DNA of 64,000 nt. Origin: Raja brachyura. Taxonomy: Eukaryota. The position numbers were made by a program, and so were the translations under genes. The DNA is taken from positions 49,476,001-49,540,000 of the forward strand of contig OY740789.1 in assembly GCA_963514005.1 (NCBI GenBank), read 5' to 3'. Below are positions 546 through 63,310 of the stretch, one piece after another. A model generated the notes under the pieces. That model was given only the letters and a program-made list of their open reading frames with translations. It made no database searches and was not told where the DNA came from. Position 1 is the first letter of the stretch, and each line of letters starts with the position of its first letter.

Positions 546-930
546 TAGGCAAGAACTGAAGATGCTGGTTTAAATCAAAGGTAAACACAAAATGCTGCAG
601 TGGGTCAGGCAGCATCTCTGGAGAGAAGAAATGGGTGACGTTTCGGGTCGAGACCCTTCTTCAGACTGATGTCAGGATTGGGCGGGACAAAGATAAAATG
701 TAGTCGGAGACAGTAGACTGGTGGGAGAACTGGGAAGGGGGAGGGGATGGAGAGAGAAGGAAAACAAGGGCTATTTGAAATTAGAGAAGTCAATGCTCAT
801 ACCGCTGTCTACAAGCTAAATATGAGGTCCCTCCAATATGTGCTGGGCCTCACTCTGACAATGGAGGAGGCCCAGGACAGAAAGGTCAGATTGGGAATGG
901 GAGGGGGAGTTAAAGTGCTGAGCCACCGGG
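546..930 (-). mobile_element. Penelope-like element 3' end (pseudo-LTR) with hammerhead core
   Basis: Minus strand carries degenerate GIY-YIG C-terminal sequence, then GTCTGAAGAAGGGTCTCGACCCGAAACGTCAC (666-635). Confidence 0.8.
635..666 (-). ncRNA. Minimal type-I hammerhead ribozyme core (PLE-associated)
   Basis: CUGAAGA-A-GGGU(CUCG)ACCC-GAAA-CG-UC; all core nucleotides present, stem I only about 2 bp. Confidence 0.65.
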
Positions 931-1222
931 AGCTATCTCGACCACACTTCTTCCCACCCTGCTTCCTGTAAAGTTTCTATCCCCTACTCCCAATTCCTCT
1001 GTCTAGGCCACATCTGTGCCCAGGATGAGGTGTTCCATACCAGGTCATTAGAGATGTCATCATTCTTTAGGAAATGGGGGTTCCCCTCTTCCATTATAGA
1101 AGAGGCTCTCACTAGGGTCTCCTCCATATCCCACAGCTCATCTCTTGCTCCCCTTACTCCCATTCATAACAAGGACAGAGTCCACCTTATCCTCACCTTC
1201 CACCCATCAGCCGTCGGCATTC
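931..1222 (+). mobile_element. Penelope-like RT thumb/linker fragment (pseudogenised)
   Basis: Translates YLDHTSSHPASCKVSIPYSQFLCLGHICAQDE...EMSSFFRKWGFP...DRVHLILTFHP, typical of PLE RT C-terminal region; inverted relative to adjacent 3' end. Confidence 0.8.
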
Positions 1223-1610
1223 TACATTCAAATGAATGAGAAAAATGGGCTGTTAGGAAAATGGTAAGCACATTAATTATTTATTTACAAACTCAATGAC
1301 CTCAAATGATTTTTCGGATTCTCGTATTTTAAATTTAGAACAAAACATAAAAAAAAATAGTAACATATTTAAAAAACGTTTTAATAGCTTGTAAGTGTGG
1401 CTGACTGAATGTCAAAAGGATTCAGAAACAATCAGTGACGCTGACATCTCTGACAGCTCGTGGGCATGGTGTGTGACCTCACTGTCTGTGAAAGACAGTA
1501 ATAGGATATTCAATTATCCTGTGCCATATTGGACCACAACCACTGCGTGCTGGACTGAGGACAGACAGAGTGGCACAGGGGAAGGCAAACAGCAGTTATC
1601 GGGCAGACAC

Positions 1611-1866
1611 TGGGCAGCACGGTGGCACAGCGATAGAGTTGCTGCCTCACAGAGCTGAGACCCAGGCTCAACCTTGACTCTGGGTGCCATCTGTATGGAG
1701 TTGGTACCTTCTCTCCGTGACCACGTCCCAGTGCTCCGGTGTTGTCCGGCAGTTGTTCCGGTTTCATCCCACACTCCAAAGATGTACAGGTTTATAGATT
1801 AATTGGCTTCAGTAAAAATGTTAAATTGTCACTAGAGTGTAGGATAGTGTTATTATACAGGGATAT
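1611..1866 (+). mobile_element. V-SINE 5' part, interrupted by Rex LINE; tail resumes 3751-3822
   Basis: tRNA-like head ggcagcacggtggcacagc, V-domain, tail gtatctctaaaccaaactaaa after the LINE. Confidence 0.85.
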
Positions 1867-3750
1867 TTCATCGAGGGCCAATCTGAAGAGGGGCATCAAG
1901 AACGCCAAACACAGATACAAGCTGCGGATCGAGGAGCACTTCAACAGCAACTCCGACCCCTGACGCATGTGGCATGGCATCCAGGCCATCACTGACTACA
2001 GAGCCACCAACTCCACCCCCACTTCCAGCGACGCATCCTTCCTCGAGGAACTCAATCACTTTTATGGCCGCTTTGAAAGGGACAACCAAGAGTTGGCCAT
2101 CAAGGCTGTGCTCCCCGATGACCACAGGCCCCTCACACTCAACCCCTACGACGTGCACGTGGCACTGAGTAGGATCAATGTACGTAAGGCTGCCGGTCCT
2201 GACGGCATCCCCGGGCGCGTCCTCAGGACCTGTGCTGCACAGCTGACAGACGTCTGGACAGACATCTTCAACCTGTCACTTGCCCAGGCAGTTGTCCCCA
2301 TGTGCCTTAAAACTACCTCCATCATGCCAGTGCCAAAACACTCCACTGCGGCGAGCCTCAACGACTTCTCCCCAGTTGCACTCACCCCTATCATCGCCAA
2401 GTGCTTTGAAAGGCTGGTCATGGCACACCTCAAATGCTGCCTACCTCCCACTCTGGACCCCTACCAGTTTGCATACCGCAAGAACAGGAGCACGGAGGAT
2501 GCCATCTCAACGATATTCCACTCCGCCCCTCCTACCTCGACAACAGAAACACTTATGTGAGAATGTTGTTCATTGACTACAGCTCAGCATTCAACACCAT
2601 TATCCCCCCTAAATTGATCGCCAAACTCGATGACTAGGGCATCAACCCCTCCCTCTGCAATTGGTTACTGGACTTTCTAACCAACAGACCACAGTCTGTT
2701 AGGTTGGATAACCACTCCTCTCCTACCCTCACCCTGAACACTGGCGTACCCCAGGGCTGTGTGCTGAGCCCCCTCCTCTACTCTCTCTTCACTTACGGCT
2801 ACATACCTGTACATGGTAACAACACCATCATCAAGTATGCAGATGACACGACGGTGATTGGTCTCATCAGCGACAACGATGAGTTGACCTATAGGGAAGA
2901 GGTTCAGCTCCTAACAGCATGGTGTGCCGACAATAACCTGGCCCTAAACTTCAAGAAGTTCAAGGAGCACATTGTGGACTTCAGGAGATCGAGAGGCTGC
3001 ACGCACAACCCCATCCATATCAACGGGACGGAGGTGGAACGTGTCTCCAACTTCAGGTTCCTGGGGGTCAACATCTCTGATGACCTCTCCTAGACCCCCA
3101 ACACATCCTCGCTGATCAAGAAGGCTCACCAGCGTCTCTTCTTCCTGAGGAGACTTAAGAAGGTCCACCTGTCTCCCCATATTCTGGTGAACTTCTACCA
3201 CTGCACCATTGAGAGCATCCTTACCAACTGCATCACAGTATGGTATGGTAACTGCTCTGTCGCCGACCGGAAAGCTCTGCAGAGGGTGTTGAAGATCGCC
3301 CAACGCATCACAGGCTCCTCACTCCCCTCCATTGAGTCTGTCCATAGTAAACGATGCCTGCGCAGGGCGCACAGCATCGCCAGGGACAGCTCACACCCCA
3401 ACCATAGACTGTTTACCCTCCTCCCATCTGGGAGACGCTACAGGTCCCTCTGCTGCCATAAAAGCAGGCTCAAGAACAGCTTCTTCCCTGCGGCTGTCAC
3501 ACTTCTCAACGCTACACCTCAATGACTGCCTGTCTCCACCCCTCCCCCCCCCCCCCCCCCCCTCGGGACTATCCAATCACCAGCAAATTGCACGGATACC
3601 ACTGTATATGTATAGATGTTCATACTCATACTACTGCGCAATTACTTGTTTATTCGTAAGTTCGCCCTTCGGAGATACCAACTGCATTTCATTGTCTCTG
3701 TATTGTACACTGCACAATGACAATTAAAGATTGAATTTAATTTAATTGAA
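1867..3750 (+). mobile_element. Rex1/Babar non-LTR retrotransposon, 5'-truncated, RT pseudogene plus 3' UTR
   Basis: [104 protein letters not shown]; stops at ~1961, 2635, 3091 and a frameshift near 2525. Confidence 0.95.
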
Positions 3751-3827: not shown

Positions 3828-4040
3828 GAAGATGAACTGCAGATACTGGTTTGCACTGAAAATGCTGATATAACTCAGCAGGACAGACTGCATCTCTGGA
3901 TAGAAGGAATGGTGATGTTTCGGGTCGAGTACAAAGAAGGGTCTCGATCCGAAACATCACCTATTCTTTCTATCCAGAGATGCTGCCTGTCCCACTGAAT
4001 TACTCCAGCAGTTTGTGTCTATCTTCGGTCTAAACCTGCG
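3828..4040. mobile_element. Fold-back mini-Penelope unit
   Basis: Left arm (3828-3929) is the reverse complement of the right arm (3935-4040); decayed hammerhead cores meet at the centre. Confidence 0.8.
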
Positions 4041-9555: not shown

Positions 9556-10055
9556 TCTTGCAAAGGCTCATGAGTTTTAATCGGATGATAAGTTACACAT
9601 GGGCCAACAACATGGTCACCTTGGTTTGTAGGAAGGAACTGCAGATGCTGGTTTATACCAAAGATAGATACAAAGTGCTGGAGGAACTCAGCGGGTCAGG
9701 CAGCATCTCGGCAGAAAAAGAACAGATGATGTGTTCGGTCGGAACCCTTCTTCAGACTGGTTCACCTTAATTCTCTCACTGCTCCTAGTGAGTGCACGTC
9801 TTTAATTTTATTTTTAGCTTTAGAGAGCCAGCATGGAAACAGGCCCCTCAGCCCATGCTGACCAATGATACAATGACATTTAAATTCTGCATCCGACCCC
9901 AAAACAATATTCCACTTCCATGACAGCTAGGTTCTTTCAGCAATGAAACCCTGTCATAATTTTTGTCACCCGTTAACCTGACAAATTTTATCGCATCTTA
10001 CTGTTCACTCATGACTTCAGTTAATCTGCATTGTTGCCCTGTTTGCCTGACATTC

Positions 10056-11773: not shown

Positions 11774-12052
11774 GTAGAAACATAGGTGCAGGAGTAGGCC
11801 ATTCGCCCCATCGAGCGAACACCACCATTCAATATGATCATTGCTGATCATCCAAAATCAGTATCCCGTTCTGACTTTTTCCCCCATATCCCTTGATTCC
11901 CTTAGCCCTAAGAGCTAAATGTAACTCTCTCTTGAAAACTTCAGATACTGGTTAAGAATCTGAGGAAGGGTTTCCATCGGAAACATCACCTATTCCTTCT
12001 CTCCAGAGATGCTGCTTGACCCGCTGAGTTACTCCAGCATTTTGTGTCTACC
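11774..12052. mobile_element. Mini-Penelope unit with 16-bp TSD, containing a nested CR1 3' end (11777-11937, minus)
   Basis: TSD atgactattattatgt at 11758-11773 and 12053-12068. Confidence 0.8.
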
Positions 12053-12754
12053 ATGACTATTATTATGTTTAAGAGCCATTTCAATTTCCCTAGTGTTTTA
12101 TCTTCGTAGGACTTTTATTACACAGTTTCCACCAATATAAGTTAATATCTCCATTCTCTTCTTGTAATTTACTTCACACATCGCATTCTGTTAATGGGTA
12201 GCGACTGGTTTGTGATAAGACCTGCTACATCTTAGGAAACTTGCAGCTTTTCACAAGAACCAAATTATGTTCCGTTAGAAGCTACTTTCAAAACAAATGT
12301 CTCTCTCTGACTTGGACCAGTGTTAGGTGTTTCTTCTTGCTTTTGGAACAGCTTGAGGTTATTCACCTCCATTAGCCCGAGGAGATTACTGCCAGCAAAA
12401 CGAGAAACATTCTTCCCTCTAGCCCTCAGGACTGGCTGAAAAGCATATTCGGTAATTATCAAACCTGCTCTATTCAATAACATTCCACAATTATGACTTT
12501 TGGTCTGTTTCACACAATGTTTCAGTAAAAGAAAATTAGTTTTTGGAAAGTGACAAAAGTGTACTTGATAACCATCAATATAACACATCCATGTTGTACA
12601 TGTCCTAGTCTCAATGTTCAGCATGAAAGCTATATTTGGTGCGCGGTGATTTACTAATATGCAACCTTCGATCTGAATGCTAATTGAACTATTTTTAAAG
12701 AGGGTTCTTTGGCCCAATACTGGCACCATTTGTTCACAAACATAAGCATTGTTC

Positions 12755-13020: not shown

Positions 13021-14699
13021 AACATTGTTCTGACTAGAGGGCACAGGGAAAGGGGGAGGGTTATGTAATTACCTTTAATGGTAATCTGTGGGGTAACCTT
13101 TTTACACAAAGGGCGGTGGGTGTGTGGAACAAGCTGCCGGAGGAGGTAGTGGAGGCATGTACTATCACAACATTTAAGAAACATTTAGACAAGTACATGG
13201 ATAGGATAGGTCAAAAGCAGGCAGGTGGGACTAGTGTAGATGGGGCATGTTGCTTGGCATGGGTAAGTTGGGCTGAAGGGCCTGTATGACTATGATTCCT
13301 CTGCCTGCACATGATCCATATCTCTCCATTCCTTCCATATCCATGCGCCTATACAAAATCGTCTTAAATATTCTTAATCTTTCATATATATAAGATGATT
13401 CTGTAATCTTAATTGAGGATCACTACCATATCTGCCCACAGCACCACCCCTGGTATCATGTTCCACCGCCCTCCGTGTAAAAGAGTTGCCCCGGGCATCT
13501 CTTTTAAATGTTGTTCCTCTCACTTTAAATCTATGGCCTCTAGTCAGAACAATAGAAATAGAGAATACAGGATTAAAACACAGAGATAAAGTAAGGTAGT
13601 GTGACAAAACAGTGCACAGAAATAAATATAAATAAACAGAGCAAGGAGTACAAGAAACAGGGACACAAAGATCGTGTGAGGGAGAGCATATCCTACAAAT
13701 TATCAAGAAGAAACTGTGACAGGTCCATTCATTTGGAAGAACTAGATGTATAACGTCTACCCATTAATAATCTTCTCTTATCCCCTTCAAATCCTCTTCC
13801 ATTGCAAAGCTTCACATCCTTATCGCCATTTCACTGCGCTATTTATTTCCCCACGGTGCCCTACAACTTACGAATCACGACATTGCCTTTATCTCATACA
13901 CTATACCGACGAGATTCTCATCGTTTTGGCACAGCAAAAAATAGAGGAAAAAATGTGATCTGTAATTGGCTGAAAAAGATAAATAATGAGCCTTTGTGAG
14001 TAAAGGAGAGGGGAGGAAAAAAATCACATTATGGTTTGCAAATACATTCAGAGTTTTCCTCTACACTCTACAGTACAGCAAGACGGTTTTAATACAGGTC
14101 AGTGGATGCAGCTCTCTAAACAATAGCCAGTGTGCTAATGGGACACAGTGTTACCTTGAGGAATATAATAAGGAAGAACAGAGCTGTCAATTGCCCGTAG
14201 CTTCAAGCAGAGGCTAACAAAGCAACTGCTCCATTGATAATGATGACATTTAATGGCGTTCAAGTTCTATTAATGTCTTTCACTTCTGGGGAGAACTTGC
14301 AGCATGCAAATGCTGTTCACGCACATCAGAATTCTACGTAGGGAAGAAATTCAAAGGAGACAAGGGAATGACAAACTTTTAAAGAAACAGGAGGTAAAAG
14401 AGGACCAGACGTGAAGGCATAAACAGAGTTAACTACTGGGAAACATCAAACTCATAATAACACATTTCTCATAAATTAATAAATGAAACTTACAGAAGTG
14501 ATTTAAATCAAGTCAATGCAGGATCTACATCAGCTAGAGTCTGAAGAAGGGTCTTGACCCATAACTCCACACAGGCACAACCCAAGGTCAGGATCGAACC
14601 CTGGTGTCTGGGGCTGTGCGGCAGTGGCTCTACTAGATGTGCCACTGTGCATCCCTGACCGACAGCAGCCAATTGCAACTTCTTGATAATCTGAGCTGA

Positions 14700-15290
14700 C
14701 CCTTTTGCTTCTAACCCTTCCCAGACTAACAGCATCTCTCTCCCCCAGGACCACCCTCCTCCAGACCCCTCCCTCTGCAAACACAATCTGGACTTGTGAC
14801 TTCCCTATCCTTCCTCTCCCCTCCTCCCCCTTGCCCCCTTCCTCCAACCTCATCGTTTAACCAGTTCCACAGTTCACCTCAGTCTGAAGAAGAGTTTTGA
14901 CGCAAAACGTTGCCTATTTCCATAGATACTGCCTCACCCGCTGAGTTTCTCCAGCATTTTTGTCTACCTTCGATTTTCCAGCATCTGCAGTTCCTTCTTA
15001 AACAACCACAATTTATCACACTGTATCCCTCTTGAGACCACACCTTCCCTAGCCCACCATTGGTCGACCAGGGCACCTCCCTGCCTGAGGTCATTTGTTG
15101 CCGGCCCGAATTTGTCATGTTTTTTTCTCACCTCCAGTTCTTCTCCCACCCACCCCCTATTTTCAGTCTGAACTAAAATGTCACCTATCCATTCTCCAGA
15201 GATGCTGCAGATACTGCAGAACATGCTCCAGATGTGTTCTCCAGAGATGCTGCCTGACCTACTGAGTTACTGCAGGACTTCATGTCCTGC
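14700..15290 (+). mobile_element. Penelope-like 3' fragments with decayed hammerhead cores
   Basis: agtctgaagaagagttttgacgcaaaacgttgcc at 14881 and repeated ccagagatgctgcc units. Confidence 0.7.
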
Positions 15291-17852: not shown

Positions 17853-17936
17853 TCTCTATGCATTTCAACTGAAATAAAAATCTATGAGAAGTGGCAGAAG
17901 TATCTGAAAGAAAATCAGCGCTGTTTTCTACTGGAA

Positions 17937-18120
17937 GGACACAAGGTGCTGGAGTAACTCAGCAGGTTAGGCAGCATTTCTGGAGAACATGGATAGGTGC
18001 TATTTTGGGTCGAGAACTTTCCCATCCCTGTTATCCAGAGATGCTGCCCAACCTGCTGAGTTACACCAGCACTTTGTGTCATTTTATGTAAACCAGCATC
18101 TGCAGTTCCTTGTTTCTACT
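17937..18120. mobile_element. Fold-back mini-Penelope unit
   Basis: gacacaaggtgctggagtaactcagcagg...cctgctgagttacaccagcactttgtgtc inverted arms. Confidence 0.8.
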
Positions 18121-18688: not shown

Positions 18689-19803
18689 AGAGAGAGTTAA
18701 AGCCAATAACTTTGCTCTGAAAAAGGATCCTGACCTGAAATATCACCTATCCATGTTCTACGGAGATACTGCTTGACCCGCTGAGTTACTCCAGCACTTG
18801 CTGTCCTTTTATTGTAAACCAGCATCTGCAGTTCCTAGTACTACATTCTAAACTTTGGTGCAGCCTCTACACTGACTCAATCCATTCTCCAGCATTTTCC
18901 CAGACTTTCAGAATCGTACCAGCCTGCTGGAACATATACCGACATTTTAATTCCACATCACTCATCCACTTCCATGACAGCTAGCTTCTTTCAGCATTGA
19001 AAACCTGTCACAATTTTTGTCACCCCTAAACCTGCCAAATTTTATCACATTTTACCCAGAACTCACGGTAAGTTAATCTGCATTGTGCCCTGTTTGCCTG
19101 ATGTTTAGCTTAGTTTAGGGACGCAGCGTGGAAACACGCCTGTTGTCCCACTGATTCTACGCCAATCATCGATCATCCGTTCACACAATAGTTCTCTGGT
19201 CTTTGTTCTAACTATCTGCCTATTAAAACCCCCCTTTCACCTGTGTCCACCTATTACCTGCCATGCTTTGTCTCTCCTCACTTTCAGCTTTCTTTGCCCT
19301 CCCCACCCTCATTCAGTCTGAACAAGGGTTTCAACCCAAAATGTCATCTATCCATGTTCTCCACAGATGCTGCCCACTCCACCACTTTGTGTCCTTCAAA
19401 TGAATGTTTTGCTTGCAGCAGTATAACAGGTATGTAAACATAGTATTCAGTAGATTCCATAATAAACAACAACAAAGTTCTAAATAAATAAATAAATGCA
19501 ATATAGTGCATAAAACAAGCCCGAAGCCCCTAGTACAATCAAGGCAGTTCAAAGTTTATTTGGAGATACATTATAATTAGAAAATAAAGCATGAAAACAC
19601 AAAGAACAAAAGAATTTAAACAAGACATCAGAAAAAAATTATGGAGGGAAAAGGAGGTTTGCAATTATTTAATTTGTTTTGGAAAGAATGCAACTACTGC
19701 CCTCGGCAGTAGGGCCTTAATTAGCCACCAGACAAGAAACACATTGCAATTGGAAGCAATAACATGGGGAAGAGTGACATCACTCCTACAGAAATACTGC
19801 AAC

Positions 19804-38734: not shown

Positions 38735-40392
38735 GTGTGTAGGAAAGAACTGCAGATGCTGGTTTACACTGACGATAGACACAAAATGCTGGAGCAACTC
38801 AATGGGTCAGGCAGCATCTCTGGAGAAAAGGAACAGGTGACATTTCAGTTTGAGACCCTTCATCAGACTGAGAGTCAGTGAGGAGGAAACTAGAGGTATG
38901 AGAGGGTGCAGAGTGGGCGGGCGCGACTCACGTTGCAGCGGCCCCTACAGCCTGTCTGTCTTTTTTTTTTTTTTTTGTCTAGTTAAATGTAGTTGTTCGT
39001 GTTTTTTTTTGTATCGTGTTCCTAACTGTGTATGTGTGGGGGGGGTGGTGGGGGGGGGGAAACTTTACAATCTCTTCCCTGCACGGGAGACCCGACTTTT
39101 TTCCCTGTCGGGTCTCCGTTGTCGTTTTGGGCCCAGCACAGCGGAGCGGCCTCCGACCGGGATGAGCTGCGGACTCACCATCGTGGGGCTGGCCGGCCTC
39201 GGAGCGTGGGGAGCGGTGGTGGCTCGCCGGTGCAGCCCGACTCCGGGCTCCGGAACTCCGCGTGGGGAGCGGTGGTGGCTCGCCGCTGCGGCCCGACTCC
39301 CGACTCCGGGTGGACTGTGATATCGGGAGCTCGCGGGTCCGGGTGAGAGACCGGTCTCCGGAGCTCCCGCAACACAGCTTCTCCGGCCCGTGTCGCGGGG
39401 TTGGAGCGACCCGGAGCGGGGCCGTACATCGCCCGGTGCGGCTTCGGTGTCCGCGGGACATTCCAGCGGGACATTCCAGCGCCCGCCGGGGGCTCCAACG
39501 CTGTGACTTTGACTTTGGGCCTAGAGCGGGGCCGTACATCACCCGGCCCGGGCCTGGGACTTGGCACCGCCCGCCTGCAGCTTCGACCTCAGGAGAGAAA
39601 TGGTGCGGGGGAGAGAGAAGACTTTGCCTTCCATCACAGTGAGGACTGTGATGGATGTTTGTGTCAATTGAATTGTTTGTGTGTTTTTTTATGAATTGTT
39701 CTGGTTGTAGAAACGGAGTTTTGTTCGAGCCTCTCTGAGGTTCGAATGACAAGCAATAAAATCAAATCAAATCAAATCAAGAACAAATCATAGCCTGCAT
39801 CCATGACTCAGGAAGGGAAGGGTAAAGCTCTTTGTTAGCTTGGGACAAGGTGATAACGAAGAAATACAAAGGGTGAAATTAGTAAGGGAACTAGTGATGG
39901 GGGGGGGGGGGGGGGGGGGAGAAAGGGAATGCAGAGAAATCAATATTCATGCCGAAGATAGACACAAAAGGCTGTAGTAACTCAGTGGGTCAGACAGCAT
40001 CTCTGGAGAAAAGGAATTGGTCAATTTCGGGTCGAGACTCTTCTTCGGAATAGGTCAGAGGAGAGCGAAACAAGAAATGTAGATGGTGATGTAGAGATAT
40101 ATAGAACAAATGATGAACGATATGAAAAAAAGCAAAGATGATAAAGAAAACAGGCCATTGTTAGCTGTGGATGAGGTGAAAATGAGTTATAGCAAAAGGG
40201 ACTCAACAAGACAACTTTGAACAAAGTACAACGACTTGGGTGGGGGAGGGACAGAGAGAGCGGAGCTGCAAGGGTTACTTGAAGTTAAAGAAATTAAAAT
40301 CATGCTGCTGGGTTGTAAGCTGCCTAAGCAAAATATGAGGTGCTGTTCCTCCAATTTGCGTGTGGCCTCTCTCCGACAGTGGAGGAAGCCCA
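38735..40392 (-). mobile_element. Penelope-like 3' fragments (two subfamilies), interrupted by GC-rich element
   Basis: 40187-40393 translates GFLHCRREATRKLEEQHLIFCLGSLQPSSM (GIY-YIG C-terminus); decayed hammerhead cores near 38836-38867 and 40018-40047. Confidence 0.8.
38911..39780 (+). mobile_element. GC-rich non-autonomous retroposon (copy C)
   Basis: T-tract, G-tract, hairpin 39087-39117, internal tandem duplications, hairpin 39631-39654, aataaa then (aaatc)n tail. Confidence 0.7.
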
Positions 40393-41075
40393 TAATATCT
40401 CTATGATTCTATTCATTTCATTCCCCTTAAGACTAAAGAAGCTTTTTTTGCTGGTTGTTTTCAAAGTTAAGCTGCTGGGCTAAGGAAGCCTAAGAAGTCA
40501 TCAACACAATGAAATCATTAAATAAATGATGGTTTTTAAGACCAAGGCATCAGTCAAACCCACCTCACAACAGTGTGAAGCTTTCAAATGTCTTCTTTAA
40601 TTGAAGATAGCTCAACCAAGTGGAAGAATTTCCCTGTGCTACCCTGTCATGCTGCAGAGGTTTAAATAATACGATTACCACATCAGTGCAGCAGACATCA
40701 AAGCTGAGTGTCTCGTTTCTCTGCCACTTAAATTGCACCCTATCAATTGTTAAATTGTTATCATGAACGTAAGTATTGGCATTAAAAAGCGTACAAACAT
40801 TGATTTATCAATCTTTTAAATACTCATCAAGATGTTTGTTGTCTAAATGTGCAAGGAATCTTATTTATTTCAGCACAATAATGGTTAATATTTTTACAGT
40901 GTTTTGAAGTGCTGACAGTTTCACAGATTTGAATTCTACCACATGAAACATATGCATTATCTAATGATAACCTTAATTCTTGTTTTTTGATGTTTTTCTT
41001 CTAGGTACAATAACACAACCAATTCCTTTCCATTCAAAGTCCTTTTGTTTAATGTTTGAAACATTATCTGTATAT

Positions 41076-42870: not shown

Positions 42871-42902
42871 GCGACGTTTCGGGTCGAGACCCTTCTTCAG
42901 AC
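42871..42902 (-). ncRNA. Minimal hammerhead ribozyme core
   Basis: GTCTGAAGAAGGGTCTCGACCCGAAACGTCGC intact. Confidence 0.65.
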
Positions 42903-43059
42903 TGATGTGGGAGGGAAAAAGAAAGGAAGAGACTGAGACAGTAGGATTAGAAGGAGAGCTGGGAAGTTGGAGGGGGGGAGGTGGGAGAAGACAAGGGCTG
43001 TCTAAAATTAGAGGTCTATGTTGATGCCGCTGGGGTGTAGATTACCCAAGCAAAATATC

Positions 43060-43853: not shown

Positions 43854-44761
43854 TGTAGTATACATATATATTATTATTTTTAACCCTTGGTGGAAATAAA
43901 TGCTTTTTTATGCCTTTTTTTTGTCAATAAATGCCTTTTTCGTGCCTCTTTTGTAATTTTATTATGATTTTTTGCCTGCGTACTTCCGAGTTTTTTAGTG
44001 CCTAAACATCCTAGCTCTACTAATTACAATCCAATTGGTTTACTCTCAATCATCATTGAAGGATGGCAGGTGTTATTTCTAGTGCTATTGTGTCCCATTG
44101 ATCTGCTCACATAGATTACACCAGGTGGCAGATCTCGTTGCACTTTGGGTCCAAACATAATCTTTTGTTGCGTGATATACAGTCAGTGGAAAGACTATAC
44201 ACGATTACAATCTAGCTGGAGCAACTCAGCGGGTCAGGCAGCATCTCTGGAGAAAAAGGAACAGATGACATTTCATGTCCCTTCTTCAGACTGGGCTGAA
44301 GTTCATAAGTTGTAGGAGCAGAATTAGGCCATTTGGCACATCAAGTCTACTCTGCCATTCAATCATGGCAGATCAATCTTTCCCTCTCAACCCCATTCTA
44401 CTGCCTTCACCCCACAACCCTTGACACCCTTGCTAATCAAGTAACTGTTAATCTTCACCATTAAAATATCCCTTGACTTGGCCACCACAGCCTTCAGTAT
44501 CAAGAATAATGGAGGTCTCTTTTAATGGATGTGAATCACCTTTCCACCATTTCATACATAGCTTTAGCCATTTTCACTTTTTTTAAATCAGTGAACTTTA
44601 GCTTAGTTAATTTTAGAGATGCAGCGTGATAACAGGCCCTTCTGCCCACCGAGTCTGTGCTGACAAAAAAGGGCTATGCATGAGTGTTGCAATATTGCGT
44701 TGGGGAACGGGTTGCGTTGTGGGAACCAGGCCTCCCAACGGGTCCCACTTAGTCTAGAAGT

Positions 44762-45243: not shown

Positions 45244-45472
45244 TGACATCATTACTTTTTTGCATATCTTTCATTCATTTGTTCTATTTCTCTCTAGATC
45301 ACCATCTACATCTCCAGCTTCCCTTTCCCCTGGCTCTCAGTCTGAAGAAGGGGCTCGACCCGAAACGTCACCTATTCCCTTTCTCCAGAGACACTGCCTG
45401 TCCCGCTGAGTTACTCCAGCTTTTTGTGTCTATCTTCAGTTGAAACCAGCATCTGAAGTTCTTTCCTATGCA
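45244..45472 (+). mobile_element. Penelope 3' unit with hammerhead core (45340-45371)
   Basis: gtctgaagaaggggctcgacccgaaacgtcac; flanked by approximate TSD cactatat(c/t)tt. Confidence 0.75.
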
Positions 45473-47799: not shown

Positions 47800-47980
47800 A
47801 GAACAAGGAACTGCAGATGCTGGTTTACGAAAAAAAGGCATAAGTGCAGGAGTAACTCAGCCTATCAGGCAGCATCTTTGTAGTACATGGATAAGTGGCG
47901 TTTTGGATCCCGGCCTGAAACATCACCCATCCATGTTCTCCAGAGATGCTGCCTGACCTGCTGAGTTACTCCAGCACTTA
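47800..47980. mobile_element. Fold-back mini-Penelope unit
   Basis: taagtgcaggagtaactcagc...gctgagttactccagcactta inverted arms. Confidence 0.8.
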
Positions 47981-48681
47981 GGTTGATCGCAGCAGTGCAC
48001 CCATCATTGAACCAACTCCTCAAGTGGGGAACCAGGGTGGAGGTGGAGTCACTGGGATGCCATTGCCATTTACTGTCCTCACCTCCAGTCTAATACTACA
48101 TGATATTCCTGGCCATCAAGGCCATCAAGTACTACTGTATGTCATTGGAAACTCACCTTCTCTCGGTTGACGTGTACATTTTTAGGTGGTATTTTCCTTG
48201 GTCTGGTTTGTTGTTCTTTACAGAATCTGAAATTGCTCCTAAGTTTCAAATGTTAGGATGCTCTTGACATTGCAACAGTATTTGCTGAGTTTCCTTTTCA
48301 GAATTCCATGCTGGAAGGAAGAAGAGATTCCACAGACGTGTAATAAATGAAAGACCAAACAGAAAATATGGTGGCACGGTGGCACAGTGGTGTTGCTCTC
48401 TTACCGAGTCAGATCCTGATGGTACGGAGCTTTATAATCACACAGTGACCGAGTTCGATCCTGACTACGGGCAGGCAAATGGAACTAGTGTAGATGGGGC
48501 GTGATGGTTGGCGTGGGCAAGATGGGCCGAAGGGCCTGTTTCCACAATGTATGACTCTAGGACTCTATGAAATGAATTTGACTAGGTCAGAAAACAATGA
48601 GAGCGCACAACAAGACTTGCTGATAATGCCACAGGCTAGCACACGTTTCCATGCCCAGACCAAGTAAAGAGCAGCATAGTT

Positions 48682-48895: not shown

Positions 48896-49464
48896 CCGAA
48901 TACACCATAGGTCTAGATGACACCTTAATAATCAAGAACCTGTCAATCTCTGCTTGAAAAATACCAATGACTTGGCCTCCACTGCCGTCTGTGGTAATGA
49001 ATTCCACAGATTCACCACCCTCTGGCTAAAGAAATGCCGGAGGCTGTGCCCTCTGGTCCTAGACTCTCCCACTAGTGGGGACATCCTCTCCACATTCACT
49101 TGATCCAGGCTATTTGGTAAGTTTGGAACGAGTGAGTGAGTGAAAATCCCAAGCTTTGCAAAATGTTTTTAAAATTAACCAATTAATTTTGACCAGACAG
49201 CAATTAAACTGCAGAATGGGTTTGTAACGGCTGTCAATAACTTTTGTATGAAAAATGAACAAATGTTGTGCAGGAAATCTGGAAGAGTTTGCACATAGGA
49301 ATGAATGATATAACAGTAATGAAGCAGCCGTTTGGGACTCTTATTCAGTTGCTACACTTTAGGGATGTGATGGTGTTAAATTGGCCCACATCCCTGCTGG
49401 CTTACGGTCTGGTCCACAAAGACCCGATTCACAGATGGGATGGAATAATGAGCTGGCAATGAGT

Positions 49465-50040
49465 TGGAAGGAACTGCAGATGCTGGTTTATACTGCTAAT
49501 GAACACAAATTGCTCGAGTAACTCAATGGGTCAAGCACCAACTCTGGAGAAAAAAAATAGGTGATGTTGCAGATCGGGCCCTTCCGACTGAAATTAGAGG
49601 TGAGGTGAGGAGTGGTGGTGGTGGTGGTGGTGGGTGGGGAGGGGGGAGGGGGGAGGGGGGAGGGGGACTGGAGGTGAGTAAAGGCTGGAACAAATCAGGG
49701 GTGTATCTCAGGGAGGGTGGAGCCCATAATGGCCCATTATTGGCTGGGGAAGGGGTGATAACAAGAGGGACAAAAGGATGCTACAACTAGGGGGGAGGTA
49801 GGGTAAGGTGCAGGGAGGAAATGGGAGGGAATGCATGTGTTACTTGAAATTCGAGAAATGAACATTCCTAGCACTGGGTTGTAAGCTGCCTAAGTGAAGT
49901 ATGAAGTGCTGTTCCTCCACTTTGTGTGTGGACTCACTCTGGCAGTGGAGGAGGAACAAGACAGAAAGGTCAGTAGGGGAATAAGAAGGGTTAGTTCAAA
50001 TATATGGCAACCTGGGAGATCCTGTAGGCTAAGGCAGATG
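49465..50040 (-). mobile_element. Penelope-like 3' fragment
   Basis: Minus strand TKVEEQHFILHLGSLQPSARN-type GIY-YIG end, UTR and terminal unit. Confidence 0.75.
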
Positions 50041-50756
50041 GAGATCGTGTAGGCCAGATGCTGCCTGACCTGCTGAGTTAGCCCATCATCGAGGAAGTGG
50101 AGCTGATTGCCAGAACCACCTTTCCCTTCCACCTTTCCACACTGTGTGGTGGTCAGATAATTATCCCAAGTTGTATGTTCACCAGTTCATTTTGCCGACA
50201 CCTGCTAGTCTGCTGGGCATCTGAACATAGACCAGGACAACTCAGGAACGGGCCCTTCGGCCCACAATGTTTGTGCCAATCACAGTTAAACTGATCTCAT
50301 CTGCCTGTACATCATCCATATCCCTCCATTCCCTGCACATCCATGTTCCTATCTAAAAGCCTCTTAAACGCCACTATCGCAACTGCCTCCATCACCACCC
50401 CTGGCAATGCTTTCCAGGCCCCCACCACTCTCTGTGGAAAAACCAGCCTCGCACATCTCCATTAAACTTTGCACACCTCACCTGATAACTCACCTTCTTC
50501 TGAAGAAGGGTTTTGACCCGAAAAGTTGCCTTCGCTCCATAGACGCAGCCTCACCCACTGAGTTTCTCCAGCATTTTTGTCTACCTTGTTCACCTTATAA
50601 CTATGCCCTCTAGTGGTGGACATTTCCACCCTGGTAAAAAGGTTCTGACTGTCAAACCTATCTATGCCTCAATTTTGAAATAATGCCTGCATTTTGTGAA
50701 TATTCCTCTTTCTTAAAATTAACAAGAAGAATTAATTAATTAATTGATTAATTAAT

Positions 50757-51000: not shown

Positions 51001-51650
51001 ATAGACTAACTGATTGATTCATTGAAGTTGGAGGAAGAGTACCGACCCGATACATCACCTATCCATGAGCTCCAGAGATGTTGCCTGACCCGTTGAGTTT
51101 CTCCAACACTTGATGTCCTCTTTCTTCAGGTCTGCTTTTCCTTCTGTGCTACAGATGTGGCATATCATCCCCCAACTGAAGAGAGGTGACCAAAAATACA
51201 TCGTCATCAATTTGCAAACTTTCCTTATGCTACCCAAAGCATCCCTCAGCGAACGAGGGTGGAAATTCATGTAATAGGCTCTGGAAATATGTGAGAATAT
51301 CACCGAGATTAAAGGGCCTTAGAGGATGATTGACTACAGACATCCTAAAACACAGCAGGACCTTTCTGTGCCATCCAAACCACTCCTCCAATAAACAAAG
51401 TCACAAAGTGCAGACTGGAGAAGGGTGTTGACCCAAACGTCACCTATCCATGTTATCCAGAGATGCTGCCTGACACGCTGAGTTACTGCAGCACTTTGTG
51501 TCTTTGTTTTGTAAGCCAGCATCTGCAGTTATTTGTTTCTACTTACAACAAACCCCCTCACTTCCCAAGGGCCCAAACCCAAATCTCTTGCCGCTACCAA
51601 ATTTAGGAAACCTTCTTTACTGGTAGGAAGGATGGGAACAGAATGGTAAT

Positions 51651-51976: not shown

Positions 51977-52699
51977 GGACGTTTTAGAGAATCAGATCAC
52001 TAATAACTTGCAAAAATCTCCAACCATTAAAGTGCTAAGAGCTGTTGTCAATGCTATTGAACATAAATTCTCAGTGGGACTCCACTTCCCCAATAACTCA
52101 TTTCCCAACACATATTTGAAATGAAACAAGGTATCAAGATTTTTACTAAAGTGGGTTAAGGGAGAGGATTGGGAATATGGAAGGTGGGGGTGGGGACGGT
52201 GAGACGAATGGGGAGATGACACTAAGCAACAAAGGCAATTATCTAAAAGAAAGACAGAATTCACGAGAAGAAAGGGTGGCAAAAAGGCTGCAAAAGTAGG
52301 TGAGAAAGGATTAAATCATTAATGAAAAGGTCAGGTCTATTCTCGATTTAATGTGCTTATAACAATCTTTATGGAGTTATCACATTGCCACTCGTGCTGG
52401 GTGTGAAAAGGTTTTAGTGGATCGAGTTACTGTTGCAATATGAAAAGCCACAACTTTAAAATGTTGTGAAAGTTAACCCATGCTTAAAACTAAACAAACC
52501 ATTCGGTCTGAATAAGGGTCTTGACCTGAAACGTCACCTATTCCTTTTCTCCAGAGATGATGCCTGACGCGCTAAGTTACTCCAGCTTTTTTTGTACATC
52601 TTCGATGCAACCAGTATCTGCAGTTTCTTCCTACACATCCGTAATGTAGGTTCAATACAGTAGTTGAAAAGTTATAGAAGGTTACTGCTCTAATTTATT

Positions 52700-56270: not shown

Positions 56271-57879
56271 AAATATTACTTAATGCTCATAGGTTCTAGG
56301 AGCAGAATTAGGCCATTTGGCCCATCAAGTCTATTCCACAATTCAATCATGGCTGACCTATCTTTTCCCTCTCAACCCCATTCTCCTGCCTTCGCCCCAT
56401 AACCCCCGACACCCTTACTAATCTGTCAATCCCCACTTTAAAAATATCCATTCACTCGACCTCCACAGCCCACCTTGCCAAAGATGCCCACATCGCAAAG
56501 AAAACAAACAAATAAATACAAAATGTGATCCCACCTTCCTGTCATTCTTTTTTTTAAAGAAAGGGTTCACTATCGATTTTCAAGCAACTGGTCTGGCCCT
56601 CCTTTAATACAGACAGAATTACGAGAACACACATGAAATTCCCCCCCCCCCCGATGTCCCTCTGAAAATGTGGCACCTAGGCCAGGTGAGGCGGCCAATC
56701 TTGACCTCATCACGGCTGGATTTCCTATGAGTGGGTCGAATTAGTCCCCTGCCGTCGGGGCTCTGGAACCCATTTCAATTTAATTTTAGAAGTGGAAACT
56801 TGATTGGCTCGTTGAGTTTGATACTTGTCTACAATACCCTGTTATCGCTGAAAAACATGAACACATTGTTTGTGTTGAGGCCTTTAAGTAGGTCTGGAGT
56901 TGCTGTCACATTAATATCTTTGAGCAGCATTTTTATGAAGGGACCCCATGATCCTCTAAAGGGCAATGGGATATGGGCATAACAGCCCACCTTGCTAAAG
57001 ATGCCCACATCGCAAAAAAACCCAAAACAAATAAATACAAAATATGATCCCACCTTCCTGTTATTCTTTTTTTTAAAGAAAGGGTTGTGGCTTTCCATCC
57101 AAATGTGTCAAATTAAAATTTGCGGCAAAGATAGACACCGTCCTGGAGTAACTCAACAGATCAGGCAGCATCTCTAGAGAACATGGATAGGTGAAGTATC
57201 AGATCAGGACCCATTTTCAGACTGGATAATGCTGCCTGACCCGGTGAGTTTGCAGTTCATTGTTTCGATAAAAATGGTAAAATCTGTCTATATGGGATCC
57301 CAACCCAAAATATCACCTATCGATGTTCTTCAGCGATTTTGCCTGACCTGCTGAATTACTCCAGCACTTTGTGTCTCCTAAACCAGCATCTGCAGTTCCT
57401 TGTTTTTACATTTTGTATTTATTACCACAGAGAAAAGCTGAAACATGACAAGGGACGTACAGTTAATTCAATTCCGAATTTCTACTTTCTTTTCAAAAGT
57501 AAAACAAGCTGCAATGATGGAAAATGTTGCAGAATGAAGCATAGTTTATTGTCATTTGTACCTAGTTACAGTGAAAAGCTTTTGTTGCATCATAACCCAG
57601 TTATGGGAAGAAGGCAGGAGAATGGGGTTGAGAGGTTAAGATAGATCAGCCATGCTTGAATGGCGGAGTAGACTCTTGGGCCGAATGGACTAATTCAGCT
57701 CCTATAACATGAACTTATACTGCCTGACTCGCTGTTACTCTGACATTCTGTGTCTTTTTAGACCCATGCAGTCACGCGGAAAACATACAGATTCCACGCA
57801 GACAGCACTTGAGGTCACAATCAAACTCGGGTCTCTGGCACTCATGACGTTTTCACTCTCATTTGGGTGGATTCATATT

Positions 57880-59857: not shown

Positions 59858-60773
59858 AATGTTCTATGTTACCCCCTGAAATGGTAGTAATCATGTAGTC
59901 TTCCACTGACTACAAACAGGCAACAAAAAAACCTTTCCACTGTACCATGGTACACGTGACAATAAAAACTAAATCAAACCGTAAAGACCGGGTGAATAAC
60001 TGGAAGGAACGTATTTTTCTGTTGAAGCAGCAGAACCTCTCGGCATTGTGTTCTGTTGCTGCCACCTCAGTAAGGAATCTGCATGATTACCATTCATAAC
60101 AAACTAGAGCGTGGACTGGACTCTGAAAATGACACCAAAACATGGCGCCTCTTGCGCGCAGGATCAGTAGACTATTTCTATGTCTGTCCACTTGCTAATC
60201 AGGGATGTGCTTGGGTATGGGAACACTTTACTGGACTGTATGTTAGGAAATAATTTCACTGTGTGTTTGCACTTAGTACAGGTGATAATAAAAGCACCAT
60301 AGAACCATTAACCAGCTGGATGCTAATGGGGCAGCCAATGCTACGAATCAATTGCTAAAGTAGTCTATTTGTTCCATTCCATTCATTGTGTCAAATCCGA
60401 TAACACATTTCAAATCAAGCACCAGTTTGACAGAAAATAATGAACAGGGAAGCAGAACCAATTAATTGCTTCCCATTGGAGTCTGATTGGTTCGAGTAAG
60501 TGTTGCCTGTCAATAAGAACTGCAAAAGACATTTTCCTGAACTTTCTGAATCTGCACATTTCGAAGGGGGGAGGGGGGGCAAAGTTCTATGATGACTTTG
60601 CGGGTGGTTGCCAAATGCCGACCAGCAGCCAGTCATGGAACCAAGGAGCTCGCTGGAGTGGGTATGAGGTTCGCCTCCCACTCGCCCCCGACGACCAGCA
60701 ACCAGTCCATGCATGGGGTACTGAATCGGGGGTTGTCTTTATGTATGGCAATAATCGCACTGATCTATATGCC

Positions 60774-60898
60774 TGAAGAAGGGTCTCGACCAGAGACGTT
60801 GCCTATTTCCTTTGCTCCATAGATGCTGCCTCACCCACAGAGTGTCTCCAGCATTTTGTCTACCTTTGATTTTCCAGCATCTGCACTTCCTTCTTAAA
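60774..60898 (+). mobile_element. Monomeric mini-Penelope unit with 9-bp TSD
   Basis: TSD ctatatgcc at 60765-60773 and 60899-60907; begins at the hammerhead core ctgaagaagggtctcgacc. Confidence 0.85.
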
Positions 60899-60954
60899 CT
60901 ATATGCCAAAAATGTATTTCACTGCATGACAATAAAAGAACCATGGAACCATTG

Positions 60955-61310: not shown

Positions 61311-62319
61311 CATATTGATGCTTTAATCCTTTAATGATCATTGAACAGCTTCTTACCTGACCACGGAAAGCGTTAAGATTGACATAATAAGCTGGAGTAG
61401 AGCAGTTCAGGCAGCATCTCTGGAGAAAAAGAATACGTGGCATTTTAGATTGAGACCCTTCTTCAGACAGAGAGTCATGGGAGAGGGAAGCAAGAAAACT
61501 TGTTGGAGAGAGGAGGAGAACTTCTTCAATGTAGGCATATCTTGAGGACATTTCGTAGAGGAGCAGAGAAAATGTGCAGGAAGGAATTGCAGATACAGGT
61601 TTAAACCGAAAATAGACATAAAAAGCTGGAGTAAATTAGCGGGTCAGGCAACATCTCTGGAGAAAAGGAATTGGTGACCTTTCGGCTCAAGACCCTTCTT
61701 CAGACAGAGTCAGGAGAAAGGGTAACAAGAGAACTCTCGTTGAGGAGAGGAGGATAATTTCTTCAAAGTAGAGCGACCTGAATGTTACAATTAGCTGCAG
61801 AGTAAGGAACTAAATTGGGAATATCAAGTGTTTCCCTAATTTAGCCAGGAAGGTGAGTATTGAGGAATCTCACAAGTTGTGGTGAATAAGCTGTGCATGA
61901 AAGAGATTTGCTTTAAATCACAACACGGTTCGCTGAAACATAAAATGCATGAGTAAGACTTTTAACTGCAGCTCTGGCTTGTGGGCTTAATAGGTTTTGA
62001 CATTGCAACTTCTATAAACAGCCACTTTACTGTCAAAGGGGAAATAAATATTAGCAGTTGGCCCAACTGACATTTGATGCATGTAAAACACTGGCACGCA
62101 ATAGACACAGCAGACTTGGAGATATTAAACATGACAAATTGCTGCTCGTACAGCTGGAAGATTTGCGACTGGGGACGAATGTGTATGAGCTCGGCAACAA
62201 TAAGGTTTAATACATCAAACTAAACCAAGATTAATATGTTGTGGATACAAGCGACTGCAGTAGCTGGAATTGTGGGCATAAAAAGCAAACTCCTGGAGGA
62301 CCATTGAATTATTTAATTT

Positions 62320-62745
62320 TAGATAACCTCAACCCCTCCTCCTTTCTACCCCACTTCCCCCTTTTTCTTACCCCCTCCTCCCCTGTGCTCCTCCTAGACT
62401 TCCACCTATTTCGCCCCTTCCACCCCCTCCCTGCTACTTTCTTCCTTCTAGCTTTGCAATCCGCAACTCCAAACCTATCTCACACTTTCTGCTCTTACCA
62501 CTGGCATTTGCTCCAAACATCTGCCTATCAACCCCCCACCCCTCGCCAATGTCCACCTATATTACCTGGCATGATTTGTCCTGCCTCTTTCCTCTTCCAG
62601 CTTGCTTCAACCCCACCCTTTGCAAAATCACTCAAAACATCACCAATCCATGTTCTCCAGAGGTGCTGCCTGAGCCACTGAGCTACTCCAGCTCTTCGTG
62701 TTATTTTGTTAATTAACCTGCATCTGCTCTTCCTCATTTCTACAA
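62320..62745 (+). mobile_element. Penelope-like 3' UTR fragment
   Basis: Pyrimidine-rich UTR as at 12820-13020 and 33125-33400, ending in the terminal unit. Confidence 0.7.
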
Positions 62746-63090
62746 CTGGAGGAACTCAGCAGGTCAGGCACCATCTGCTTCGGAAAACACAAAGTGCTGG
62801 AGTAACTCAGTGGGGCAGGCAACATCTCTGGAGGACGTTTCAGGTTTGAACCCTTAATTAGACTGATATGACCGAGAAGCATGGCAGATGCATTTATTAT
62901 TGTACTTGAAACATGAATGTGGTAAAAAATTAGCTTGAAATTCCATCAAAATATTCAATTTAATATCATGATATTATCATTATGATTAATGGAAGTGCAT
63001 GCTGTCACTAAGATGGCTCTGATGTTCACAAGGAATTGCCTCACAGTTCTAGTTACGTTCAGAATTCCCCATAAAATAATACTGGACAAA

Positions 63091-63310
63091 TGCAAGAGCA
63101 AGGAGCTTCAGATGCTGGTTTACAAAAGAAGACACAAAGTGCTGGAGTAACTCAATGGGTCAGGCAGAATCTCTGGAGAACATGGATAGGTGAAGTTTGT
63201 GGTCGAGTTCTTGTGTCTGAAGAAGGGTTTCGACCCGAAACGTCACCTATGTATGTTCTCCAGAGATGCTGCCTGATTCATTGAGTTACCCCAGTACTTT
63301 GGGTCTTCTT
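63091..63310. mobile_element. Fold-back mini-Penelope unit with 14-bp TSD and intact hammerhead core (63215-63246, plus)
   Basis: TSD taata(c/t)tggacaaa at 63077-63090 and 63311-63324; CUGAAGA-A-GGGU(UUCG)ACCC-GAAACGUC. Confidence 0.85.

What the first reader, a model, noticed from the sequence alone, without database searches (positions are those of the whole stretch)
635..63246. Dense family of minimal hammerhead-ribozyme cores on both strands
Seen: the motif GT-CTGAAGA-A-GGGT(N4)ACCC-GAAA-CG-TC recurs roughly 20 times. It is intact at 635-666 (-), 42871-42902 (-) and 63215-63246 (+, UUCG loop), near-intact at 45340-45371 (+), and decayed at ~3935, 9727, 11960, 14540, 14882, 19316, 33465, 38836, 40018, 50500, 52507, 60773, 61440 and 61675. 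Known: CUGANGA / stem II / GAAA / UH with a one-pair, palindromic (ACGU) stem III is the minimal type-I hammerhead described for Penelope-like element terminal repeats and animal retrozymes, proposed to cleave as dimers. Here the motif lies downstream of Penelope GIY-YIG C-terminal coding sequence. Inference: any transcript crossing this region would carry many potential self-cleavage sites. Caveat: stem I is only about 2 bp by eye.
Basis: partly seen in the sequence, partly recalled or inferred. Interest (0 to 1): 0.7.

Follow-up and report, generated by a model that had tools for sequence, protein, structure and literature searches.

The report
Penelope retrotransposon ends with minimal hammerheads
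The repeated motif is the outline of a tiny self-cutting RNA of a known kind, sitting in the end piece of a jumping gene that has left roughly a million mostly decayed stubs in this genome (likely a shark, ray or skate); most young stubs begin at the motif's first letters, which likely marks where the element's RNA starts and suggests it is usually copied uncut.

Summary
Observation confirmed: all 18 cited positions hold the motif. It is the first 32 nt of a ~95–135-nt pseudo-LTR unit of a Neptune-type Penelope-like element (PLE). A full-length copy with a 1,191-aa RT/GIY-YIG ORF lies elsewhere in the genome (L036). The window has 46–53 fragments and only 3 strict minimal hammerheads. Its density (7.2 per 10 kb) is within the genome's range (mean 4.5, range 0–13), and 82,164 intact cores occur genome-wide. 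Copies decay neutrally: core conservation equals flank conservation, and catalytic G12 is kept in only 65%. Stem I is 2 bp. Three of four best copies are predicted to fold into an inactive hairpin; the fourth is buried in a fold-back duplex. 'Many self-cleavage sites in a transcript' is therefore not supported. The copy ends are the interesting part. Of 93 young copies, 58 start within −5..+10 of the motif, none starts at the cleavage site, and 3' ends fall in two clusters, matching the published PLE 'tail'. This suggests run-off cDNA from uncut RNA that begins at the hammerhead; a small excess of starts at the cleavage site is only a hint. This is a known kind, and the scan has reported it many times, including in this genome.

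The parts
635..666 (-). Intact minimal type I hammerhead core: 2-bp stem I, CUGAAGA, extra A, 4-bp stem II, GAAA, CG, cleavage triplet GUC
542..667 (-). Pseudo-LTR unit (hammerhead to second RT-start zone, tail included) at the 3' end of a 5'-inverted Neptune-type copy
777..932 (-). Broken GIY-YIG C-terminal coding fragment (aa 1146-1202 of the L036 frame, 60% identity), followed by 3' UTR down to 668
931..1212 (+). Inverted RT-thumb fragment of the same element (aa 917 to about 1010, 68% identity), joined at 931/932 with about 400 nt of the element missing
42871..42902 (-). Intact minimal hammerhead core; unit 42770-42906, preceded by 3' UTR and a short endonuclease C-terminal remnant near 43000-43060
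63215..63246 (+). Intact minimal hammerhead core (UUCG loop closed by U-A), right arm of a fold-back insertion
63094..63311 (.). Head-to-head inverted pair of pLTR units (63094-63211 minus, 63212 onward plus), with an 8-nt flanking repeat that may be a target-site duplication; RNA across it is predicted to form a ~110-bp duplex that sequesters the core
45250..45471 (+). 3' UTR end plus pLTR unit; core 45340-45371 near-intact (G.A mismatch at stem II pair 4)
39949..40396 (-). 5'-truncated copy: endonuclease C-terminal remnant (40310-40396), 3' UTR, decayed core
49460..49992 (-). 5'-truncated copy: endonuclease C-terminal remnant (49846-49992) and decayed pLTR unit (49460-49588)
61374..61790 (-). 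Partial tandem with a 237-nt period: decayed core at 61705, tail, ORF start, jump to the last ~30 nt of 3' UTR, second decayed core at 61468; part of a third unit lies upstream
3832..4039 (.). Head-to-head inverted pair of decayed units (source of the spurious Rfam AEV_CRE hit)
17904..18116 (.). Head-to-head inverted pair of decayed units (source of the spurious Rfam RUF6-5 hit)
28168..28307 (.). Head-to-head inverted pair, both arms lacking the core
33408..33594 (.). Head-to-head inverted pair; plus arm has C3 changed; 11-nt flanking repeat
47801..47981 (.). Head-to-head inverted pair of decayed units
57126..57266 (.). Head-to-head inverted pair of decayed units; a further plus unit at 57295-57405
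9625..9759 (-). Decayed solo unit (G12 and A14 changed)
11958..12056 (+). Decayed solo unit
14537..14564 (+). Core-only fragment
14879..15004 (+). Decayed solo unit (G12 changed)
18714..18844 (+).
19312..19397 (+). Decayed unit (G8 and G12 changed)
38736..38899 (-). Decayed unit with 3' UTR end; core letters kept, stem II and palindrome damaged
44214..44293 (-). Decayed solo unit with a deletion in stem II
50499..50587 (+). Decayed solo unit; core and stem II kept, palindrome lost
51026..51540 (+). Two decayed solo units (51026-51145, 51410-51540)
52503..52638 (+). Decayed solo unit (G8 changed)
60768..60900 (+). Decayed solo unit (A14 changed); 9-nt flanking repeat
62632..62866 (.). Three further decayed fragments (62632-62735 plus; 62745-62776 and 62782-62866 minus)

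Best explanation
The motifs are minimal type I hammerhead cores at the start of the pseudo-LTR of a very abundant Neptune-type Penelope-like retrotransposon, and the window's copies are mostly decayed stubs, likely made when reverse transcriptase started at one of two internal sites about 95 and 130 nt into the element's RNA and ran off its likely 5' end at the hammerhead's first letters without the RNA having cut itself. Shown: the parent element, the copy boundaries, neutral decay, and head-to-head pairs. Inferred: (1) RNA polymerase starts at the YCAGTCT initiator-like sequence that overlaps stem I, which would explain why stem I has only 2 bp. (2) Internal RT initiation gives the two 3' end classes. 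(3) Extension from both nicked target strands gives the inverted pairs. (4) Run-off followed by a jump to about +190 to +290 of an element RNA gives partial tandems such as 61374-61790. (5) The ribozyme is off in naked monomer RNA and would cut only rarely, as a dimer or with help from the element's protein. The inserted copies have no shown function.
For: Full-length element L036: pLTR starting at the hammerhead, ORF of 1,191 aa from the first Met with YIDD, linker CNRKRCYTC and CIRCSRC-LIYIG, a second pLTR, and an inverted copy upstream. Pfam RVT_1 and GIY-YIG hits were weak, below curated cut-offs. A homolog search gave 1,868 relatives; the closest named ones are from cartilaginous fishes. 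Young subfamily, 93 copies picked by a 47-mer downstream of the core: 3' ends at +92..+103 in 60, +123..+136 in 32 and +232 in 1; 5' ends at -5..+10 in 35 of 64 solo and 23 of 29 inverted copies; none at +31. Target-site duplications of 8-17 nt in 31 of 68 solo copies. Of 24 copies that read into the ORF, 21 break at +187..+286, and 20 of those re-enter the element. Neutral decay in 169 spanning copies: non-CpG core 0.947 against flank 0.931 with no per-base difference (p 0.24-1.0); G12 kept in 106 of 163 against a flank CpG G in 121 of 168. Stem II pairing probability is 0.0 in 3 of 4 folded monomers because GAAGAAGGG pairs with the pyrimidines just past the cleavage site. PMC11167929 shows two internal RT starts, extension of both strands, uncut RNA as the main substrate and protein-assisted cleavage for a Poseidon element.
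Against: No raw RNA reads were available, so no RNA start or cut end was seen. The extra-G signal at 5' junctions is strong in mixed lists (54 of 100 and 63 of 100, counted by eye) but weak in solo copies (21 of 50, p about 0.05; 10 of 28, p 0.32, in the first subset). An extra G also appears before starts at +31, so it is not cap-specific. The sequence before the core also fits a 3' splice site. The 93 copies come from the first 4.2 Mb of one contig, and both arms of inverted pairs were counted, so they are not independent. Starts at the cleavage site do exist. The in vitro precedent is from a different clade, where the hammerhead overlaps the start codon.
Confidence: 0.8

Rival explanations
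1. The 5' pile-up marks a 3' splice site (pyrimidine tract, CAG, then the core), and short copies come from spliced or splice-cleaved RNA rather than from a transcription start.
For: The 3' UTR ends in a pyrimidine tract and CAG in L036 and in other subfamilies. In D. virilis Penelope the intron end maps to the 5' end of helix I (PMC4209133).
Against: No shared upstream exon: solo copies are preceded by target DNA or heterogeneous inserts. Many copies include the AG or CAG. No GT..AG joint among the 15 joints shown of 111 (contigs only; three of the four runs may be DNA).
Confidence: 0.12
2. The short units are a self-propagating non-autonomous family (retrozyme or SINE) that spreads through hammerhead-processed circular RNA.
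For: About a million short copies; partial tandems with about 200-240-nt period in the window (61374-61790) and elsewhere; a preprint links animal retrozymes to PLE pLTRs.
Against: The young short copies match the pLTR of the coding element. Tandem junctions differ from locus to locus (19 loci, no shared junction). The core is minimal, not canonical. Both cores of the window's tandem are damaged.
Confidence: 0.1
3. The dispersed cores act as many self-cleavage sites that shape host transcripts crossing the region.
For: 82,164 intact cores genome-wide; some copies gain a 3-5-bp stem I from junction bases (20 of 246 matches).
Against: 3 intact cores in the window, no same-strand intact partner within 42 kb, the plus-strand core is in a duplex, decay is neutral, the predicted fold is inactive, and no host exon was detected. 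Published minimal hammerheads do not cleave as monomers.
Confidence: 0.05
4. The motif in this family is a catalytically dead relic kept only because it overlaps promoter or protein-binding sequence.
For: 2-bp stem I; no two-sided compensatory change among five subfamily majority sequences; flank blocks are as invariant as the core; competing helix.
Against: All 5 subfamily differences in the 32-nt motif are structure-compatible: two in loop II, U-A to U.G in stem II, C17 to U17, and U-A to U.G in stem I. There is a modest excess of starts at +31, and two loci have 63-nt tandem units each starting exactly at +31.
Confidence: 0.25

Closest known systems
Minimal hammerheads (min-HHR) in pLTRs of metazoan PLEs: Xena, Poseidon and Neptune of fishes, coelacanth, Xenopus (Cervera and De la Pena 2014, PMC4209133; parts 1-2 of 4 read, supplement searched by terms)
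   Same: Type I order, extra nucleotide between 9 and 10.1, G10.1-C11.1, palindromic 15.2-16.2, located in the pLTR, mostly solo or opposite-strand pairs.
   Different: Stem I is 2 bp (4-5 bp in Schistosoma; 2 bp reported for D. virilis) and stem II is 4 bp. There are 82,164 intact cores here against about 4,000 and 9,000 in coelacanth and X. tropicalis (different descriptors). No shark or skate term was found in the searched supplement files.
Neptune-type EN+ Penelope-like elements (Craig et al. 2021, PMC8557442; Introduction and passages read)
   Same: RT plus C-terminal GIY-YIG, Zn-finger-like linker, partial tandems, inverted 5'-truncated copy, optional 30-40-bp tail.
   Different: The ORF has a long proline-rich N-terminal part (1,191 aa), and the copy population is dominated by ~95-135-nt stubs. 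Neptune versus Nematis was not separated by a tree.
Poseidon of Anolis carolinensis, PAc (Frangieh et al. 2024, PMC11167929; parts 1-2 of 4 read)
   Same: Two internal RT starts that delimit the tail; both target strands extended; uncut RNA is the main substrate.
   Different: In PAc the hammerhead overlaps the start codon; here it lies about 165 nt upstream of the first Met, and copy 5' ends pile up at its border.
Non-LTR retrozymes (Cervera and De la Pena 2020, PMC7229834, passages; Li et al. 2026 preprint 10.64898/2026.07.22.740005, parts 1-3 of 5)
   Same: Type I hammerhead in short repeats related to PLE pLTRs.
   Different: Retrozymes are tandem arrays, with canonical, efficiently cleaving hammerheads in the cases tested in PMC7229834; here the units are dispersed, minimal, and have variable tandem junctions.

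Membership tests
Minimal type I hammerhead of PLEs | CUGANGA and GAAA boxes, NUH triplet, stem II with G10.1-C11.1 | tested here: met
   3 strict matches in the window, 0 in 200 simulations; 82,164 genome-wide
Minimal type I hammerhead of PLEs | Extra nucleotide between 9 and 10.1 and palindromic 15.2-16.2 with no helix III | tested here: met
   All 18 strict hits in 664 kb have both
Minimal type I hammerhead of PLEs | Helix I of several base pairs | tested here: inconclusive
   Only 2 bp (174 of 246 relaxed matches); a guessed 3-bp variant had 0 matches; 2 bp has a precedent in D. virilis
Minimal type I hammerhead of PLEs | Structure-compatible variation between lineages | tested here: inconclusive
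   5 of 5 subfamily differences are compatible, but only one-sided; no two-sided compensatory change
Minimal type I hammerhead of PLEs | Self-cleavage as dimer or with protein help | not testable with these tools
   No raw reads; only an indirect hint from copy starts at +31
EN+ Penelope-like element | Single ORF with RT and C-terminal GIY-YIG carrying two Cys between GIY and YIG | tested here: met
   L036 ORF; Pfam scores below curated cut-offs, motifs visible
EN+ Penelope-like element | Pseudo-LTRs in partial tandem, inverted truncated copy at the 5' end, optional 30-40-nt tail | tested here: met
Neptune clade | CX2-5CxxC Zn-finger-like linker between RT and EN (shared with Nematis) | tested here: met
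   CNRKRCYTC at aa 1070; definition from PMC8557442
Neptune clade | RT phylogeny grouping with Neptune references | not tested
   No clade-labelled reference proteins were available; Neptune is preferred because the preprint found only Neptune and Poseidon in vertebrates
Non-LTR retrozyme | Tandem array of a fixed unit with an intact hammerhead in each unit | tested here: not met
   Window tandem has two damaged cores; junctions vary among loci
Non-LTR retrozyme | Abundant circular RNA of unit size | not testable with these tools
   Only contigs were available

The most novel reading that the evidence does not exclude
The element's RNA begins at the hammerhead, so the ribozyme is a 5'-terminal switch. 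Uncut, the capped RNA is translated and copied, giving about a million stubs that start at the motif. Occasionally, with help from the protein or a second RNA, it cuts off its capped 30-nt leader, and the genome keeps a fossil record of this as a few hundred copies and short tandem arrays that start exactly at the cleavage site. That would be genomic evidence that a PLE minimal hammerhead cuts in vivo.
Probability: 0.3. Interest if true: 0.6.

Novelty: new member of a known kind. Interest (0 to 1): 0.27.

Why it matters
The motif class and its host are published, and the window's copies are neutral debris, so this is not a regulatory ribozyme array. The value is as a natural dataset. The role of the hammerhead in PLE transposition is open (PMC8557442, PMC11167929). 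A young family with more than 36,000 near-identical copies and an intact full-length ORF makes the RNA start, the two RT starts, the double-strand insertion and in vivo cleavage testable by counting junctions and by in vitro work.

Tried and rejected
Rfam at E<=1 gave no hammerhead hit; the RUF6-5 and AEV_CRE hits are fold-back pairs below gathering scores. Local enrichment was rejected. A longer stem I in the master sequence was not found. Cap-derived extra G as proof of a transcription start: too weak in solo copies and not cap-specific. A fixed mini-element family for 61374-61790: junctions vary. Host exons: no Pfam hit above cut-off in 97 non-repeat ORFs; only 99 of 227 candidate ORFs of 45 aa or more were scanned, so short exons are not excluded. 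RNA evidence: only contigs, with two of the four laid runs flagged probably DNA and one an unconfirmed guess, so nothing on expression or ends. The energy of the dimeric hammerhead fold could not be evaluated (invalid value); the co-folded MFE was not the active dimer. Literature searches for PLE hammerheads in cartilaginous fishes returned nothing relevant; Repbase and Dfam could not be searched, and the preprint's supplements (one chondrichthyan genome) were not seen, so prior description is not excluded.


Full report
Observation. The 30-nt motif has 20 matches with up to 6 mismatches on both strands: three exact (637-666 minus, 42873-42902 minus, 63215-63244 plus) and one with a single change at 45340. 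A strict descriptor (core boxes, stem II of 4 bp or more with G10.1-C11.1, palindromic insert, UH) finds 3 in the window and 0 in 200 Markov simulations. Rfam gives no hammerhead hit.

It is a genome-wide repeat. The 32-nt pattern occurs 14,789 times and the structural core 82,164 times in the 2.7-Gb genome, evenly on both strands, with 0 for reversed controls. In 40 arbitrary 10-kb stretches the unit occurs 4.5 times per 10 kb (range 0-13; 4.5% of bases), against 7.2 in the window and 2.6 and 5.6 in the flanking 100-kb stretches. Extrapolated, that is about 1.2 million fragments. The window is ordinary.

Parent element. A search with the window's RT-thumb fragment found copies with long open frames. 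L036 holds a full element: a pLTR beginning at the hammerhead (2038-2170), an open frame of 1,203 codons (1,191 from the first Met) with YIDD, a CNRKRCYTC linker and CIRCSRC-LIYIG, a 3' UTR, a second pLTR ending about 35 nt earlier than the first reads through, and an inverted copy upstream. Pfam RVT_1 and GIY-YIG hits are weak. The closest named homologs are from Chiloscyllium, Rhincodon and Mobula at 66-74% identity, so the host is probably a cartilaginous fish. The linker motif puts the element in the Neptune/Nematis group (PMC8557442); no tree was built. In the window, 542-1212 is a 5'-inverted copy with endonuclease and RT-thumb remnants; 40049, 49588 and 42902 also have endonuclease remnants upstream. 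Seven head-to-head pairs occur among the 53 fragments.

Is the ribozyme under selection? In 169 copies spanning the unit, non-CpG core positions are 0.947 conserved against 0.931 for subfamily-invariant flank positions, with no difference base by base. In the 22 window copies the values are 0.917 and 0.938. Catalytic G12 lies in a CpG and is kept in 106 of 163 copies, no better than a flank CpG G (121 of 168, p 0.19). Only 21 of 169 keep core, stem II and palindrome. Local alignment slightly favours matches at the 5' end, which would inflate the core value. So inserted copies are neutral. Between five roughly defined subfamilies, 5 of 32 motif positions differ against 23 of 63 flank positions, and all five changes are tolerated (loop II twice, U.G in stem II, U17, U.G in stem I). 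That is modest evidence for constraint on active elements; it has no two-sided covariation and could also reflect promoter constraint.

Can it fold? Stem I is 2 bp (174 of 246 relaxed matches). In 46-nt monomers stem II has probability 0.0 for the 635 and 42871 copies and for L036, because the purine run of the core pairs with the pyrimidines after the cleavage site; it is 0.74 for 63215. But 63215 is one arm of a fold-back whose RNA is predicted at -138.6 kcal/mol, z -15. PMC4209133 reports no cleavage of a minimal monomer and low cleavage of dimers; PMC11167929 reports cleavage only with protein and no need for it in insertion. The two other intact cores are 42 kb apart. No host exon was found among 97 non-repeat ORFs scanned (99 of 227 candidates). 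The inference of many working cleavage sites is not supported.

What the copy ends record. A 47-mer downstream of the core marks a young subfamily with 36,149 exact copies. Of 93 distinct copies from the first 4.2 Mb of contig C1, 3' ends lie at +92..+103 in 60, +123..+136 in 32 and +232 in 1 (G of GUCUGA = +1), matching the two RT starts and optional tail described for PAc. 5' ends lie at -5..+10 in 35 of 64 solo and 23 of 29 inverted copies; the other 29 solo copies extend from -9 to beyond -700; none begins at +31. Inverted arms are not independent. 31 of 68 solo copies have 8-17-nt target-site duplications, often with short purine-rich inserts at the 5' junction. A structure-induced RT stop would be expected on the 3' side of the hairpin, so an RNA 5' end at the initiator-like YCAGTCT is the simplest reading (inference). 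D. virilis Penelope has an internal promoter (PMC2377424, passages). An extra G marks capped full-length L1 insertions (PMC11702581, one passage); here G precedes 54 of 100 and 63 of 100 listed starts at 0 and +1 (counted by eye), but only 21 of 50 solo copies (p about 0.05), so this is weak. Of 24 copies that read into the ORF, 21 break at +187..+286 and 20 of these re-enter the element at or before another hammerhead unit, with variable junctions. The window's 237-nt tandem at 61374-61790 is an old example, and 19 look-alike loci share no junction. I read these as template jumps.

Does it ever cut? Following an earlier AI note (e1-9878350), I counted apparent starts at +31, +33 and +30: 283, 163 and 77. 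In 30 loci each, true starts were 26, 19 and 16 (about 245, 103 and 41 genome-wide) and solo starts 8, 10 and 11 (about 75, 54 and 28). Starts at 0 and +1 number 4,464 and 7,033. The excess at +31 comes partly from fold-backs at a small palindrome and from two loci with 63-nt tandem units that each start at +31; a start at +32 plus an added G would look the same. This is a hint, not evidence, and cut templates are at most a few percent.

Comparison and novelty. The motif meets the sequence definition of the minimal PLE hammerhead except for its short stem I, and the host meets the structural definition of an EN+ PLE. It fails the tandem-array definition of a retrozyme. Two searches found no paper on hammerheads in cartilaginous-fish PLEs, but Repbase, Dfam and the preprint's supplements were not seen. 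The copy number is high but not a record: a section heading of PMC7229834 on axolotl hammerheads, shown cut off, gives 'up to 120 000'. The scan's index holds 787 notes with these words in at least 40 genomes and 54 hammerhead notes in this genome; several reached the same reading, which is not independent support. Verdict: real, a new member of a known kind, interest 0.27; the testable part is the RNA start at the hammerhead and rare in vivo cleavage.

Noticed in passing
window 19968-23632 (-): Broken LTR-retroelement remnant of Gypsy type: DUF7041 gag-like, RT, RNase H and integrase domains in several frames.
   Followed up: partly
window 43299-43853 (+): 184-aa frame with a weak hAT dimerisation hit (E 0.018); probable DNA transposon remnant.
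   Followed up: partly
window 1964-3525 (+), 34676-35116 (+), 31761-32138 (+), 55701-56006 (+): Non-LTR RT fragments (RVT_1 hits for the first two); Rex1-like and CR1-like labels are recalled, not tested.
   Followed up: partly
window, e.g. 1621-1860, 4968-5174, 29201-29377, 30678-30896: A second abundant ~170-240-nt repeat with about 20 copies; it resembles a SINE of cartilaginous fishes from recall only.
   Followed up: no
L305 1350-1800 and L310 (G000:C1:74.83 Mb and 117.72 Mb): Head-to-tail arrays of four to five 63-nt units running from the predicted cleavage site (+31) to the first RT start (+92), joined by one extra G.
   Followed up: partly
L036:2039-2170: The unit's 5' end is predicted to pair with the end of the tail, and an 8-9-bp stem joins +50..+58 to +106..+114 (z -1.7, weak). 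Both RT-start zones follow a CCAGC motif.
   Followed up: no
L009, L058, L064, L084, L109, L110, L113, L163, L166 and others: Junction bases (often GG) extend stem I to 4-5 bp in 10 of 246 matches, so individual insertions may be better ribozymes than the master.
   Followed up: no
L037 387-2402 (-): RT plus restriction-like endonuclease frames of another non-LTR element next to the PLE copy.
   Followed up: no
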